Below, in pieces: positions 54,901-57,900 of a stretch of DNA of 64,000 bases (positions are counted from its first letter, which is position 1; each line of letters begins with the position of its first letter). The stretch is from Escherichia coli (lineage in GTDB: Bacteria; Pseudomonadota; Gammaproteobacteria; Enterobacterales; Enterobacteriaceae), in NCBI RefSeq assembly GCF_048403405.1, contig NZ_CP183129.1; one strand, written 5' to 3'. Made by a program: the position numbers.

Positions 54901-57900
54901 CAATCAACGTTGCGAGGTGATCGGCCAACGCTGCTGAATCGCCAAAAGTACAAAAGGAAGCATGGGGATATTTTTGTGAGATTTTTTCTTTTATGGTCAT
55001 GAGAATATTTTCGCGATTACGGAAAAAAATCACATCTTAATTACTGTTGATAACCATCAGCAAGAGGATCATTGGTTTTTCTATGTTTAATCTTTTTTAT
55101 CCGAAGCCGGTCACATTTATGGCTTGATAAATACCTTTGTTAAAACTCACTTTTGTGTATTTCTCTCAAATAATCCCCTGGAAATTATGCCGGGAGATTA
55201 TAAAGTTCAGGATCATTCATTAGCAAACCATTGCTGCCCCACTCCCTGGGGCTTTAAATCTCTTACGATTCACCATTGCAGGCGTTTCAAATGCGTATCA
55301 ACCTGCCACACTCCCCCACACCAGTTGCCCTTTATGGAACGTCGCCGTTCTCGGCGAGATACGCGCCACCGCCTCGGCGGAACAGGAGGCGTCCACCAGC
55401 ACAAAGCTGGCGTCATCCTGCGCTTTGGGCCAGACGCGCTCGCCTTTTTCATTGAGCGGCAATACATCGCCAGTGGCTAAAAACAGCGAACGGGAGAGGT
55501 TCTGTTCGTTAGGGCGAATATAGAGCTGCGCGTACAGATTGGCTTTTTCCAGCATGTCGCCCAGGCCGTAAGGCGACCAGTGGTCGATAACGCTGTCGGT
55601 GCCAGTCATCACTTTTACGCCTTTGTCGTGCAACTGTTTGAGCGGCATATGCAACGTGCCAATCGGCACCGTCGAGGCGATAGAAATTTGCTGCGCCGCC
55701 ATCCGGTGCGCCAGTTCATCTACCTGTTGCTCATTGAGCGTTGCCAGCGCAAAGGCGTGGCTGATGGTCAGCTTGCCCTTCAGTTGCGGCGTTTTCTCTA
55801 CCGTTTCAACCATATAATTGATGGCTGCCACGCCTGCCGGAGTGGTTTCGTGCAGGTGAATATCGACGCCTTTGTCGTAGTCCAGCGCAATCTGGAACAT
55901 GGTGTCGAGGGATTTTTCCATCGCGCCATCAACACTGGTTGGGTCCAGCCCGCCGACGTAATGCGCCCCTGCCTGCATCGCTTCGCGCATTAAGGGTTCC
56001 GATTTCGACAGCAGCAAACCGTGCTGCGGGAAGGCGACAATTTCACACTCGAAGCCCGCCTGACGTCGCGCCAGCACCGCCTGCAAATTTTGCAGATTTT
56101 TCAGGCCGGAAACCGGTTCGATATTGCAGTGGCTGCGGGCAATGGTAGTGCCTTTCGACTGCAATAAATCGATCAGTTTTTCCGCTCGTTCCTGCGAGTA
56201 CGGTTGCAGCTCCGGCAGCATTTTCTGCTCGAGTTTGATCATGTCCTGGATGGTGGTGCCTGCCGGACGATTGAGCGAGCGCCACGGCCCGCCGTAAAAG
56301 GTTTTGTCGAGATGAATATGCATGTCGCGGGTAGTGGGCAGCATCAGCTTACCGCCAGCGTCATAGTGCGGCAGCGTGGCGTCCGGATGCTGCTTGTTCT
56401 CGCGCAGGGCAACAATTTTGCCGTTCTGAATCTCTACGGTCTGGTGCGCCGTGCGGGTCTGTACTGCCACACCGTTTTCGTAGTCAAAACCGGTTTCCAG
56501 CAGCACGTTGTCGAGATAGTAGTGCGGGTCAGTGATTTTCATGGTGTTATTCGCGTCGCAATGGATTGTGCCAGAGACTGCCGCATGGGCGAGCGGCACA
56601 GAGGTACCAAACAGCGCGGCGGCGGTGACCATCTTACCGCTCTGGCTCAGAAACTCACGGCGGCTATTGCTTTCTTTCATCTTACGTCCTTACGTTTTAA
56701 TAATATGGGTGCCCGTTTCACCGCGCAGCGCCGCAGGCAGGCATTCCGGCGTGGTGATAATCACTTCTTTGCCGCCCTGTTCCAGGAACGTCAGGCTGGC
56801 GATGATTTTTGGCAACATGCTGCCAGGCGGAAAATGCCCTTCCTGCATATAGCGGGTCATGGTGGCAATATCCACCCGATCCAGCGCCTGCTGCTGCGGT
56901 TTGCCAAAGTGAATACACACTTTTTCGACGCCAGTGGTGATCACCAGAATGTCGGCGTGAATTTCACGGGCCAATAGCGCGGTAGAGAGATCTTTGTCGA
57001 TAACCGCGTCCACGCTTTGGTAATCCCCCGCTTCACTGCACACCACCGGAATTCCGCCACCGCCCGCGCCAATCACCACAAAGCCTTGTTGGATCAGCGC
57101 CTTAATGGCAGGTGCTTCTACAATACGTTGCGGTTCCGGCGAGGCGACCACGCGGCGATAGCCCCGTCCGGCATCTTCAACAAAACGCCAGTCAGGGTTT
57201 GCCTTTTGTAATTCGTCACGCTGGCTTTCACTAAAGAATGCGCCGATGGGCTTGGTGGGATGGGCAAACCCCGGATCGTTTTTATCCACTTCCACCTGAG
57301 TCACCACGGTGACGGCTTTTTTCTCACCGTGACGCGCCAGTCGGTTATTCAGCGCCTGTTGGATCAGATAGCCAATGCCGCCTTGCGTATCCGCCACACA
57401 GTTCGCCAGCGGCGTTAAGGGCAGCCCTTCGCGCTCGTGGGCTATCTCCGCGCGGCGTAAATCCAGACCGACCTGCGGCCCGTTGCCGTGGGTCAGCACA
57501 ATGTCGTAATCGGAAGCCAGCATTTCCAGCACCGTATCGGCCACGGCTTTCACCGCCTCCGCCTGATGCTCAATCGACTGGCTGGCGTTATCTTTGATAA
57601 TGCTGTTGCCACCAATGGCAACGACCACAAGTTCTTTCATGTTGTTATGTCCGCTACAGAGGGTGATGGGGTTATGAGAGTGAGGTTGCCCCTCTCCCCA
57701 GAAGGGAGAAGGGATCGTAAGGTGCGTTTGCAGGTCAGACGCCGTAACGTTCGCACCAGCCAAGAATGGCTTTCTCGAAGCAGGCGAATGGTGGATGCAC
57801 AATGCCCGCGCCAATCATGCCGACGCCCGCATCTTTATGGGCGATGGCGGTGTTGATCACCGGCAGAATGCCGCTGCTGCCCACGCGGGTGATGTCGATT

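What the first reader, a model, noticed from the sequence alone, without database searches (positions are those of the whole stretch)
55298..56680. YahJ amidohydrolase carries a twin-arginine (Tat) export signal
The N-terminus MKESNSRREFLSQSGKMVTAAALFGTSVPLAHA matches the Tat consensus (S-R-R-x-F-L, hydrophobic core, AxA cleavage site). A folded, probably metal-loaded, amidohydrolase would therefore act in the periplasm, so the first step of the yah pathway likely happens outside the cytoplasm and the product would need to be imported.
Basis: seen in the sequence. Interest (0 to 1): 0.4.

Follow-up and report, generated by a model that had tools for sequence, protein, structure and literature searches.

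The report
Known Tat export signal on YahJ

Summary
The ORF at 55298-56680 (minus strand, 460 aa) is E. coli yahJ. It starts MKESNSRREFLSQSGKMVTAAALFGTSVPLAHA, which has SRREFL, a weakly hydrophobic core and an AHA|A cleavage site. This is not chance: it is the only strict Tat-like start among 1434 candidate starts in the window. The RRxF[LI] motif is kept in all 88 N-terminally complete relatives I examined (50-100% identity, several phyla).

It is not new. The identical peptide is printed as a TatP-predicted Tat signal in PMC7549933, and yahJ is listed as a predicted Tat substrate in PMC3027627.

The mature part is an AtzC/cytosine-deaminase-like amidohydrolase with an intact metal-ligand set.

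Gene context elsewhere supports action outside the cytoplasm:
- tatA-tatC directly downstream in Priestia
- a TonB-dependent receptor directly upstream in Caulobacter
- a transporter gene inside the yah cluster in most Enterobacterales

One new lead emerged. The ankyrin protein YahD is YahJ's most constant neighbour, and it is a lipoprotein in Bacteroidota. It could be co-exported with YahJ.

The parts
55298..56680 (-). yahJ coding sequence (460 aa precursor, stop codon included)
   Evidence: ORF. 100% identical to annotated yahJ. Pfam Amidohydro_3/Amidohydro_1 and NCBIfam PRK06846 (715 bits, covering residues 49-459 only).
56582..56680 (-). Codons 1-33: predicted Tat signal peptide MKESNSRREFLSQSGKMVTAAALFGTSVPLAHA. 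n-region 1-16, h-region about 17-28, c-region with AHA and predicted cleavage before A34.
   Evidence: Sequence. Identical peptide listed as a TatP-predicted Tat signal in PMC7549933 Table 2. Properties within the range of other E. coli Tat signals. pLDDT below 50 for residues 1-42 in the AF2 model.
56648..56665 (-). Codons 6-11: twin-arginine motif S-R-R-E-F-L
   Evidence: AGC CGC CGT GAG TTT CTG. R7 invariant and R8 at least 90% conserved in A1. xRRxF[LI] present in 88 of 88 complete relatives.
56687..56691 (-). Shine-Dalgarno-like AAGGA, 6 nt upstream of the yahJ ATG, overlapping the yahI stop codon (TAA, 56690-56692)
   Evidence: Read directly from the sequence.
55301..56581 (-). Mature YahJ (residues 34-460): variable linker 34-48, then an AtzC/cytosine-deaminase-like amidohydrolase domain
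   Evidence: PDB sequence hits 6nbo (E 2.9e-44), AtzC and CodA. AF2 model with mean pLDDT 91.4. Foldseek top hits 6nbo (TM 0.89 normalised by target length), AtzC and CodA.
56312..56320 (-). Codons 121-123: the H-x-H metal-binding motif. The other ligand and catalytic residues are H275, E278, H308 and D362.
   Evidence: H121, H123, H275 and H277 are invariant in 106 family members. H308 and D362 are at least 90% conserved and invariant in the 15 Tat-bearing members, where E278 is at least 90% conserved. Assigning residues to roles by analogy with CodA (His61/63/214/246, Glu217, Asp313) rests on my own knowledge.
56690..57640 (-). yahI, carbamate kinase family, immediately upstream of yahJ in the same operon-like array
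   Evidence: NCBIfam PRK12352 carbamate kinase, 645 bits. Annotation.
57735..59153 (-). yahG, paralogue of the oxamate carbamoyltransferase subunit AllG
   Evidence: Pfam PF06545 AllG, 298 bits.
59153..60700 (-). yahF (annotated fdrA-like), paralogue of AllF
   Evidence: Pfam CoA_binding and Ligase_CoA; NCBIfam PRK06091 FdrA, 491 bits.
60690..61553 (-). yahE, paralogue of AllH
   Evidence: Pfam PF11392 AllH, 100 bits.
61593..62198 (-). yahD, 201-aa ankyrin-repeat protein with no signal peptide (this is the maximal ORF). It is the most constant neighbour of yahJ across species.
   Evidence: Pfam Ank families. Present in 52 of 68 species loci, including minimal yahB-yahD-yahJ loci. 40% identical to a Bacteroidota lipoprotein encoded next to a YahJ homologue.
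62456..62953 (+). yahC, DUF1097 small membrane protein. In the species surveyed it is present only in cluster variants that lack the 516-aa transporter gene.
   Evidence: Pfam DUF1097. Complementary distribution: 10 loci with yahC and no transporter, 37 with the transporter and no yahC, none with both.
63045..63977 (+). yahB, LysR-type regulator that travels with yahD and yahJ
   Evidence: Annotation. Present in 51 of 68 species loci.

Best explanation
yahJ encodes a precursor with a cleavable N-terminal twin-arginine signal peptide (residues 1-33). This is followed by a short variable linker and a mononuclear-metal amidohydrolase domain of the AtzC / cytosine-deaminase branch.

The most likely course is as follows. 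The enzyme folds in the cytoplasm and probably acquires its metal there. TatABC recognises it through S-R-R-E-F-L and exports it folded. Signal peptidase I releases it after A-H-A. In the periplasm it hydrolyses an amino- or amido-substituted N-heterocycle, probably by deamination.

The product would then be taken up. Most genera encode a UraA-fold (7+7) secondary transporter inside the cluster. Escherichia lacks that gene and carries the small membrane protein YahC instead. After uptake, the product would be degraded in the cytoplasm by YahE/F/G, which are paralogues of the AllH/F/G oxamate carbamoyltransferase, and by the carbamate kinase YahI, yielding ATP and ammonia.

Shown here:
- the sequence features and their conservation
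- the fold and the ligand set
- the gene neighbourhoods

Taken from the literature: prediction as a Tat substrate, and a weak competitive defect of a yahJ deletion mutant in mice.

Inferred and not shown: actual Tat-dependent export of native YahJ, cleavage, metal loading before export, the substrate, the order of steps and the import route.
For: Sequence and start site.

Uniqueness in the window.

Similarity to 23 accepted or predicted E. coli Tat signals.

Conservation: the RR motif is kept in 88 of 88 complete relatives from Enterobacterales, Aeromonas, Shewanella, Wohlfahrtiimonas, Alphaproteobacteria and Priestia, while the h- and c-regions vary. The wider family (about 400-410 aa) mostly lacks any N-terminal extension, so the signal is a specific add-on of the YahJ clade.

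Structure: residues 1-42 are outside the fold and the domain starts near residue 50. The fold is amidohydrolase with conserved HxH/H/H/D plus Glu.

Context:
- Priestia: homologue (50% id) followed by tatA 30 nt downstream, then tatC, and divergent from a Xan_ur_permease gene
- Caulobacter: homologue 30 nt downstream of a TonB-dependent receptor gene
- A 36%-identical Tat-bearing homologue sits in a cluster of transporter, AllH, AllF, AllG and carbamate kinase genes, next to a PucR-family regulator
- The cluster transporter is predicted to have the UraA/SLC26 fold, and sources name its relatives xanthine/AGZA permeases

Literature: PMC7549933 (TatP prediction of this exact peptide; delta-yahJ competitive index 0.70, p = 0.02). 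PMC3027627 (b0324 yahJ predicted Tat substrate, based on Dilks 2003). AllFGH is oxamic transcarbamylase in PMC11326118. An amidohydrolase-superfamily phosphotriesterase is Tat-targeted in a pre-folded state, PMC7142613.
Against: No localisation, cleavage or metal data for native YahJ were available here.

Prediction lists contain false positives. The same table in PMC3027627 also lists pepE, holD and can.

The motif lacks the consensus Lys after F-L, and the c-region has no basic 'Sec-avoidance' residue, so Sec promiscuity cannot be excluded.

E. coli has no transporter gene inside the cluster.

YahJ occurs without yahEFGI in 21 of 68 species loci, so coupling to that module is not obligatory.

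A deaminase product is not obviously a carbamoyl (ureido) compound, so at least one step between YahJ and YahEFG is unaccounted for.

The transporter's family assignment rests on fold (TM 0.45-0.58) and on source annotations. It had no significant Pfam or PDB sequence match.
Confidence: 0.72

Rival explanations
1. YahJ is Tat-targeted, but the signal peptide is not cleaved or is only partly cleaved. The enzyme would then stay tethered to the periplasmic face of the inner membrane, as reported for the Tat-dependent phosphotriesterase/OPH, rather than being a soluble periplasmic protein.
For: The Tat-targeted phosphotriesterase is described as membrane-associated and facing the periplasm (PMC7142613). 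The YahJ h-region is 12-14 residues, and cleavage is only predicted.
Against: A canonical A-x-A site (AHA|A, or AYA|A in orthologues) is conserved. No 19-residue window reaches a transmembrane-like hydrophobicity. A variable linker follows the site, as is typical of cleaved precursors.
Confidence: 0.1
2. The twin-arginine-like N-terminus does not direct Tat export in vivo. YahJ would either remain cytoplasmic or leave through Sec, and would work alongside YahEFGI in the cytoplasm.
For: Tat predictors give false positives. There is no consensus Lys after F-L and no basic residue in the c-region. No direct localisation data could be retrieved. The rest of the operon is cytoplasmic-type, and E. 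coli has no cluster transporter.
Against: The RR pair is strictly conserved in 88 of 88 relatives while neighbouring positions vary. Signal-less paralogues exist as a separate class, side by side with a signal-bearing copy in Flavobacterium. tatA-tatC lie immediately downstream in Priestia. A TonB-dependent receptor lies immediately upstream in Caulobacter. From my own memory, not verifiable here, the YahJ leader was in the set tested with reporters by Tullman-Ercek et al. 2007.
Confidence: 0.06
3. YahJ is exported, but it is not the entry step of a yahEFGI pathway. It would form an independent periplasmic module with YahD and the LysR regulator YahB, for example scavenging ammonia from or detoxifying an external heterocycle. 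Its linkage to yahEFGI in Escherichia would then be a looser association.
For: Loci with only yahB-yahD-yahJ (Pragia, Cedecea, Erwinia) or yahJ alone (Xenorhabdus, Photorhabdus, Serratia marcescens group) make up 21 of 68. Ankyrin-YahJ pairs without AllFGH occur in Microvirga and Bacteroidota.
Against: The full D-E-F-G-(transporter)-I-J array is kept in 47 of 68 loci. AllH/F/G plus carbamate kinase are adjacent even to a homologue only 36% identical, and AllF/AllG lie near one only 30% identical. yahJ starts 9 nt after yahI, which suggests co-translation.
Confidence: 0.2

Closest known systems
E. coli YahJ (b0324) as listed among predicted Tat substrates (TATFIND/TatP lists; PMC3027627, PMC7549933; from memory also Tullman-Ercek et al. 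2007, J Biol Chem 282:8309, which is not held in the library)
   Same: It is the same protein. The signal peptide in the window is identical, residue for residue, to the one printed in PMC7549933 Table 2.
   Different: Nothing in the signal. The window's allele differs from the K-12-type sequence at four positions just after the cleavage site: AVSGTIHCD against AVAGTLNCE. This strain also has an ASCH plus ABC-transporter island downstream.
AtzC (N-isopropylammelide isopropylaminohydrolase) and cytosine deaminase CodA; PDB 6nbo, 2qt3/4cqb, 1k6w
   Same: Same fold and the same HxH / His / His / Asp metal site with a catalytic Glu. These are the best sequence and structure matches.
   Different: The solved structures match YahJ only from about residue 77-107 onward, and the roughly 400-aa family members have no N-terminal signal. 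Identity is 20-28% in the structural alignments, so the substrate cannot be transferred.
Phosphotriesterase / organophosphate hydrolase (OPH) of Brevundimonas and Sphingobium
   Same: A metal-dependent TIM-barrel hydrolase, of the amidohydrolase superfamily by my own knowledge, that is targeted pre-folded through Tat to the periplasmic side (PMC7142613).
   Different: It has a binuclear metal centre and different chemistry, and is reported as membrane-associated. It has no yah-like gene context.
AllF-AllG-AllH oxamic transcarbamylase plus carbamate kinase AllK (anaerobic allantoin branch of E. coli; PMC11326118, PMC9843812)
   Same: YahF, YahG, YahE and YahI are paralogues of AllF, AllG, AllH and the carbamate kinase, in the same kind of array.
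   Different: The two all-operon papers I searched do not mention the yah genes. In my recollection that pathway has no Tat-exported enzyme; I did not test this here. The yah substrate is unknown, and the yah array adds an ankyrin protein and an exported amidohydrolase.
Substrate gene next to a dedicated translocase, as in Bacillus subtilis phoD-tatAd-tatCd (own knowledge)
   Same: In Priestia the YahJ homologue (signal FSRRRFI) is followed by tatA and tatC, with gaps of 30 and 67 nt.
   Different: That arrangement is in a Firmicute relative, not in the window. E. coli uses the general TatABC.

Membership tests
Tat (twin-arginine) signal peptides | Consensus S/T-R-R-x-F-L-K with an (almost) invariant arginine pair near the boundary of the n- and h-regions | tested here: met
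   S6-R7-R8-E9-F10-L11. The seventh position is Ser, not Lys. This was the only strict match among 1434 candidate starts in the window.
Tat (twin-arginine) signal peptides | Tripartite n/h/c structure, longer than a typical Sec signal, with a weakly hydrophobic h-region | tested here: met
   33 residues, RR at position 7, 25 residues after RR. The best 10-residue Kyte-Doolittle mean is 1.63, against a range of 1.40-2.44 (median 1.81) for 23 other E. coli Tat signals. No transmembrane-grade window.
Tat (twin-arginine) signal peptides | Signal peptidase I site (A-x-A) at the end of the c-region | tested here: met
   A-H-A|A at residues 31-33/34. Orthologues have AYA, AHA, ALA or AIA at the same place. 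Cleavage itself was not tested.
Tat (twin-arginine) signal peptides | Motif under selection in orthologues | tested here: met
   88 of 88 N-terminally complete relatives keep xRRxF[LI]. Two Bacteroidota homologues have R-K.
Tat (twin-arginine) signal peptides | Export depends on TatABC and on the arginine pair in vivo | not testable with these tools
   This needs fractionation in wild type against a tatC mutant, and an RR-to-KK substitution. Only predictions were retrievable. The reporter study I recall (Tullman-Ercek 2007) is not held.
Amidohydrolase superfamily, AtzC / cytosine-deaminase branch | (beta/alpha)8 barrel with an N/C-terminal beta-sandwich | tested here: met
   Pfam Amidohydro_3 at 68.8 bits (cut-off 29.7) and NCBIfam PRK06846 at 715 bits (cut-off 447). 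AF2 mean pLDDT 91.4. Foldseek 6nbo E 1.8e-33, TM 0.89 normalised by target length.
Amidohydrolase superfamily, AtzC / cytosine-deaminase branch | Metal ligands HxH (strand 1), His (strand 5), His (strand 6), Asp (strand 8), plus a catalytic Glu in HxxE | tested here: met
   H121, H123 and H275 are invariant. H308 and D362 are at least 90% conserved in 106 sequences and invariant in the Tat clade. E278 is at least 90% conserved in the Tat clade.
Amidohydrolase superfamily, AtzC / cytosine-deaminase branch | Bound divalent metal and hydrolytic (deaminase) activity on a defined substrate | not testable with these tools
   No biochemical data were found, and identity to characterised enzymes is only 20-28%.
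AllFGH-type carbamoyltransferase plus carbamate kinase module (neighbours YahE/F/G/I) | Three subunits matching the AllH, AllF and AllG families, with an adjacent carbamate kinase | tested here: met
   PF11392 at 100 bits, PF06545 at 298 bits, NF004760 FdrA at 491 bits, NF009007 carbamate kinase at 645 bits. All are above their cut-offs.
AllFGH-type carbamoyltransferase plus carbamate kinase module (neighbours YahE/F/G/I) | Phosphorolysis of a carbamoyl compound to carbamoyl phosphate | not testable with these tools
   Activity is shown only for AllFGH (PMC11326118). That paper does not mention the yah paralogues.
NCS2/NAT or AzgA nucleobase permeases (the 516-aa cluster transporter of other genera; absent from the window) | Significant match to the family's sequence profile (Pfam Xan_ur_permease) | tested here: not met
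   No Pfam family at E up to 10, no PDB sequence hit, and no similarity to the Priestia Xan_ur_permease. Only source-given names and one precomputed hit in a relative point that way.
NCS2/NAT or AzgA nucleobase permeases (the 516-aa cluster transporter of other genera; absent from the window) | 7+7 inverted-repeat 'UraA' fold | tested here: met
   AF2 mean pLDDT 86.8. Every top Foldseek hit listed is a 7+7 transporter: SVCT1, SLC26Dg, BicA, UraA, UapA, AZG1/2, Bor1. TM is 0.45-0.58. The fold is shared with the SulP/SLC26 and SLC4 families, so the substrate class stays open.

The most novel reading that the evidence does not exclude
YahD, the 201-aa ankyrin-repeat protein encoded at the head of the operon, may be a physical partner of YahJ. 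In Proteobacteria, where it has no signal of its own, it could be carried into the periplasm bound to folded YahJ by Tat 'hitch-hiking'. Alternatively it could act as a dedicated cytoplasmic chaperone or inhibitor until export.

Grounds:
- yahD is the most constant neighbour of Tat-yahJ: 52 of 68 species loci, including minimal yahB-yahD-yahJ loci, and in either gene order in Microvirga.
- Its Bacteroidota counterpart is 40% identical and collinear, and is encoded next to a YahJ homologue in two genera. It carries a lipoprotein-type signal, so it works outside the cytoplasm there.
- Designed ankyrin proteins are known to pass through Tat in E. coli (PMC6478843).
Probability: 0.25. Interest if true: 0.55.

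Novelty: already known. Interest (0 to 1): 0.2.

Why it matters
The finding as stated adds nothing to what is published. YahJ has been on lists of E. coli Tat substrates since the early genome-wide predictions, and the identical signal peptide is in print.

What remains open is the biology of a conserved y-gene cluster: why a deaminase-type metalloenzyme is exported, what it acts on, and how that connects to an ATP-yielding carbamoyltransferase and carbamate kinase module.

The comparative data gathered here make those questions more tractable. They point to an external N-heterocycle, probably nucleobase-like, that is processed before uptake. They identify a candidate transporter that Escherichia has lost. 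They also flag the ankyrin protein YahD as a likely partner of YahJ. A natural ankyrin-repeat hitch-hiker or chaperone on the Tat pathway would be of moderate interest to the protein-export field.

Tried and rejected
1. I tried to read the reporter study of E. coli Tat leaders (Tullman-Ercek 2007) by DOI and by PMC id. It is not held, so its result for YahJ is cited only as memory.

2. Literature searches for yahJ, yahD and yahE-I found no functional study. The AllFGH and carbamate kinase papers do not mention the yah paralogues.

3. An internal start at Met17, which would remove the RR motif, is rejected. That position is not conserved, and the upstream codons are conserved as protein.

4. 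A lipoprotein reading of YahJ is rejected. There is no lipobox at the cleavage site. The Cys at position 41 is seven residues past the AHA site and is absent in many orthologues.

5. Sequence-level assignment of the 516-aa cluster transporter failed: no Pfam hit at E up to 10, no PDB phmmer hit, and no BLASTP similarity to the Priestia Xan_ur_permease. Only the fold search was informative.

6. Relaxed tblastn found no ankyrin gene within the stretch read in the 'yahJ alone' loci or in the Priestia loci and the short metagenome contig L009. The YahD link is therefore frequent but not universal.

7. I looked for a remnant of the transporter gene or a REP element between yahG and yahI in the window. 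That gap is only 94 nt, with a short imperfect hairpin. The inverted-repeat scan call failed on strand syntax and I did not repeat it.

8. A YahD-YahJ complex prediction was not attempted.
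Full report
OBSERVATION

The 2-kb stretch is 100% identical to several E. coli chromosomes, where the gene is annotated yahJ, 'amidohydrolase family protein'. It is flanked upstream by yahI (carbamate kinase family). 5045 of 5426 complete E. coli genomes have a match.

The start codon is credible. AAGGA sits 6 nt upstream of the ATG, and the ATG lies 9 nt after the yahI stop. The only internal alternative, Met17, is I, V, L or A in orthologues.

IS IT MORE THAN CHANCE?

I scored every ATG/GTG/TTG start of ORFs of at least 80 aa in all six frames of the window, 1434 candidates in all. The test was [ST]RRxF[LIVM] in the first 35 residues, followed by a hydrophobic stretch and an AxA-type site. 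One start passed, and it was YahJ.

I then compared YahJ with 23 other E. coli Tat signal peptides printed in PMC7549933. YahJ is unremarkable on every measure:
- length 33 (range 26-53)
- RR at position 7 (range 3-25)
- 25 residues after RR (range 19-30)
- best 10-residue hydropathy 1.63 (range 1.40-2.44)

No 19-residue window reaches transmembrane-grade hydrophobicity.

CONSERVATION

The 120 closest database relatives (69-98% identity), wherever the N-terminus is intact, carry the motif.

A scan of one genome per species returned 80 loci at 62-98% identity. They come from Enterobacterales, Aeromonas, Shewanella, Wohlfahrtiimonas, Labrys, Microvirga and an unnamed Rhizobiales. 79 are N-terminally complete and all 79 have xRRxF[LI]. 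With the nine loci fetched otherwise, the count is 88 of 88.

In a 15-sequence alignment reaching down to 30% identity, R7 is invariant and R8 is at least 90% conserved, while the h- and c-regions vary freely.

An exhaustive profile-free search of cluster representatives shows that most of the wider family (about 400-410 aa) starts directly at the first beta-strand with no extension. Several deeper branches at 30-62% identity carry Tat signals, and one has an R-K variant. The signal is therefore a specific, selected feature of the YahJ clade.

WHAT THE MATURE PROTEIN IS

Pfam Amidohydro_3/Amidohydro_1 and NCBIfam PRK06846 match above their cut-offs. The NCBIfam model covers only residues 49-459.

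The closest solved structures by sequence are 6nbo (E 2.9e-44), AtzC and cytosine deaminase. An AlphaFold2 model built on 106 sequences has mean pLDDT 91.4. Residues 1-34 and 36-42 score below 50, and the domain scores about 98 from residue 50 on. Foldseek returns 6nbo (TM 0.89 normalised by target length), AtzC, CodA, 5-methylcytosine deaminase and then other heterocycle deaminases.

H121, H123, H275 and H277 are invariant in all 106 sequences. H308 and D362 are at least 90% conserved, and invariant in the Tat clade, where E278 is at least 90% conserved. By analogy with CodA (my own knowledge) this is the complete mononuclear-metal site plus the catalytic Glu. 'Probably metal-loaded' is thus a fair inference, but it has not been measured.

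PRIOR KNOWLEDGE

PMC7549933 (Virulence 2020) lists YahJ with the identical 33-residue peptide as a TatP-predicted Tat substrate of an ExPEC strain. It reports a modest competitive defect for the yahJ deletion mutant: competitive index 0.70, p = 0.02.

PMC3027627 (2011) lists b0324 yahJ, 'putative deaminase', among predicted E. coli Tat substrates, following Dilks et al. 2003.

From memory, the YahJ leader was also in the panel tested with reporter fusions by Tullman-Ercek et al. 2007. That paper is not held, so I do not rely on it.

Native localisation of YahJ does not appear in anything I could read.

CONTEXT IN THE WINDOW

Upstream on the same strand lie:
- yahI (carbamate kinase, 645 bits)
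- yahG (AllG family)
- yahF (AllF/FdrA family)
- yahE (AllH family)
- yahD (ankyrin repeats)

Divergent from these are yahC (DUF1097 membrane protein) and yahB (LysR-type regulator).

AllF, AllG and AllH are the three subunits of oxamic transcarbamylase, which makes carbamoyl phosphate for a catabolic carbamate kinase (PMC11326118, PMC9843812). Those papers do not discuss the yah paralogues. YahEFG plus YahI thus look like a cytoplasmic, ATP-yielding module for some other carbamoyl compound.

CONTEXT ELSEWHERE

Of 68 species loci with at least 8.5 kb read upstream of yahJ:
- 36 have yahB / yahD-E-F-G-[516-aa membrane protein]-yahI-yahJ.
- 1 (L075) has the same array with no intact yahF detected.
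- 10 have the Escherichia form: no 516-aa gene, but yahC present.
- 4 have only yahB, yahD and yahJ.
- 1 (Microvirga) has only yahJ and an ankyrin gene, which lies downstream.
- 16 have yahJ with none of these genes.

The 516-aa protein has no significant Pfam or PDB sequence match. Sources name its relatives xanthine/AGZA permeases. Its AlphaFold2 model (mean pLDDT 86.8) matches only 7+7 'UraA-fold' transporters: SVCT1, SLC26Dg, BicA, UraA, UapA, AZG1/2 and Bor1, with TM 0.45-0.58. So the common form of the cluster includes a secondary transporter, and Escherichia has lost it. yahC and the transporter never co-occur (10 loci against 37, none with both). The yahC group may reflect only one or two evolutionary events.

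More distant Tat-bearing homologues keep the same associations:
- 36% identity: transporter, AllH, AllF, AllG, carbamate kinase, YahJ, next to a PucR-family regulator.
- 30% identity: AllF, AllG, an MFS transporter and a second amidohydrolase.

Three further contexts bear directly on location:
- In Priestia (Bacillaceae), the homologue (50% identity, signal FSRRRFI) is followed by tatA after 30 nt and then tatC. It is divergent from a Xan_ur_permease gene.
- In Caulobacter sp. RHG1, the homologue starts 30 nt after a TonB-dependent receptor gene.
- In Flavobacterium, a signal-bearing copy (47% identity, SRKDFL) and a signal-less paralogue flank an ankyrin gene.

THE ANKYRIN PARTNER

yahD is the most constant neighbour of yahJ, present in 52 of 68 loci. 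The E. coli ORF is maximal at 201 aa, and its ankyrin repeats start near residue 10. It therefore cannot have an N-terminal signal.

In Bacteroidota the counterpart is 40% identical over 182 collinear residues (E 1e-46). It begins MKTLLLL...F[AT]SC. Of 106 full-length relatives, 102 have a hydrophobic N-terminus and 95 also have the Cys, which makes this a lipoprotein-type signal. It lies next to a YahJ homologue in both loci examined.

So the partner works outside the cytoplasm in that phylum. In Proteobacteria a signal-less YahD could be co-exported bound to YahJ, or it could act on the precursor in the cytoplasm. Ankyrin-repeat proteins are compatible with Tat export in E. coli in engineered systems (PMC6478843). 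I found no paper linking YahD and YahJ. This is a lead, not a result.

ASSESSMENT OF THE INTERPRETATION

Export by Tat is very likely. A periplasmic enzyme cannot sit downstream of cytoplasmic, nucleotide-dependent steps unless intermediates are exported again. If YahJ belongs to the same pathway as YahEFGI, acting first and outside is therefore the economical reading, and the cluster transporter fits it.

The weak points are these:
- No substrate is known.
- A deaminase product is not obviously a carbamoyl compound, so a step is missing.
- E. coli lacks the transporter.
- YahJ occurs without yahEFGI in 21 of 68 loci.

I rate the interpretation as partly supported.

VERDICT

Novelty: already known. 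Interest is low for the finding itself. The side lead on YahD and the lost transporter deserves a note.

Noticed in passing
window 61593-62198 (-), yahD; L091:6135-6803 (-); L096:6001-6681 (+); L006:2976-3611; L089 about 11564-12145: The ankyrin-repeat protein YahD is the most constant neighbour of Tat-YahJ (52 of 68 species loci). It is present even where yahEFGI is absent. In Bacteroidota its 40%-identical counterpart carries a lipoprotein-type signal peptide (95 of 106 relatives). This suggests a periplasmic YahD-YahJ pair and possible Tat hitch-hiking in Proteobacteria.
   Followed up: partly
L004:6942-8492 (Serratia oryzae) and the equivalent position in 37 of 68 species loci; the corresponding gap in the window is 57641-57734: Most genera have a 516-aa polytopic membrane protein between yahG and yahI. 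It has no Pfam family and a predicted UraA/SLC26-type 7+7 fold, and its sequence is kept at 64-91% identity from Proteobacteria to Firmicutes. Escherichia lacks it. The window has only a 94-nt gap there, with a short imperfect hairpin.
   Followed up: partly
window 62456-62953 (+), yahC: The DUF1097 membrane protein YahC is present only in cluster variants without the 516-aa transporter (10 loci against 37, never both). This could be a non-orthologous replacement, or just one shared rearrangement in the Escherichia/Klebsiella/Kluyvera group.
   Followed up: partly
window about 51500-55033 (-): ASCH-domain ORF 54590-55033 (annotated start near 55000), substrate-binding protein 53353-54339, then ABC ATPase and permease genes at lower coordinates: This strain has an accessory island between yahJ and yahK, on the same strand as yahJ. 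It holds an ASCH-domain protein and a sugar / 'autoinducer-2'-type ABC transporter. The island is present in 2212 of 5426 complete E. coli genomes and absent from the rest. I did not examine whether it is co-transcribed with yahJ.
   Followed up: partly
L007:10001-12438 (Priestia): A Bacillaceae YahJ homologue sits in an apparent operon with its own tatA and tatC, divergent from a Xan_ur_permease gene. This looks like a substrate-dedicated Tat translocase of the phoD-tatAdCd kind.
   Followed up: partly
L096:4447-7895 (Flavobacterium): An exported copy (SRKDFL signal, 448 aa) and a signal-less copy (403 aa) of the YahJ-type amidohydrolase flank the ankyrin lipoprotein gene. The same chemistry may therefore run on both sides of the membrane in that organism. 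The R-K pair in place of R-R is a natural variant whose Tat competence is unknown.
   Followed up: no
L090:8428-10074 (-): A PucR-family regulator (named after the purine catabolism regulator) lies next to a distant yah-like cluster containing the transporter, AllH/F/G, carbamate kinase and a Tat-bearing YahJ. This hints that the pathway's substrate is purine-related.
   Followed up: no
database proteins P0001, P0003, P0005, P0008: A few metagenome or assembly gene calls fuse yahI and yahJ into one protein of 677-780 aa. Given the 9-nt gap between the genes, these are probably frameshift, stop-codon read-through or assembly artefacts.
   Followed up: no
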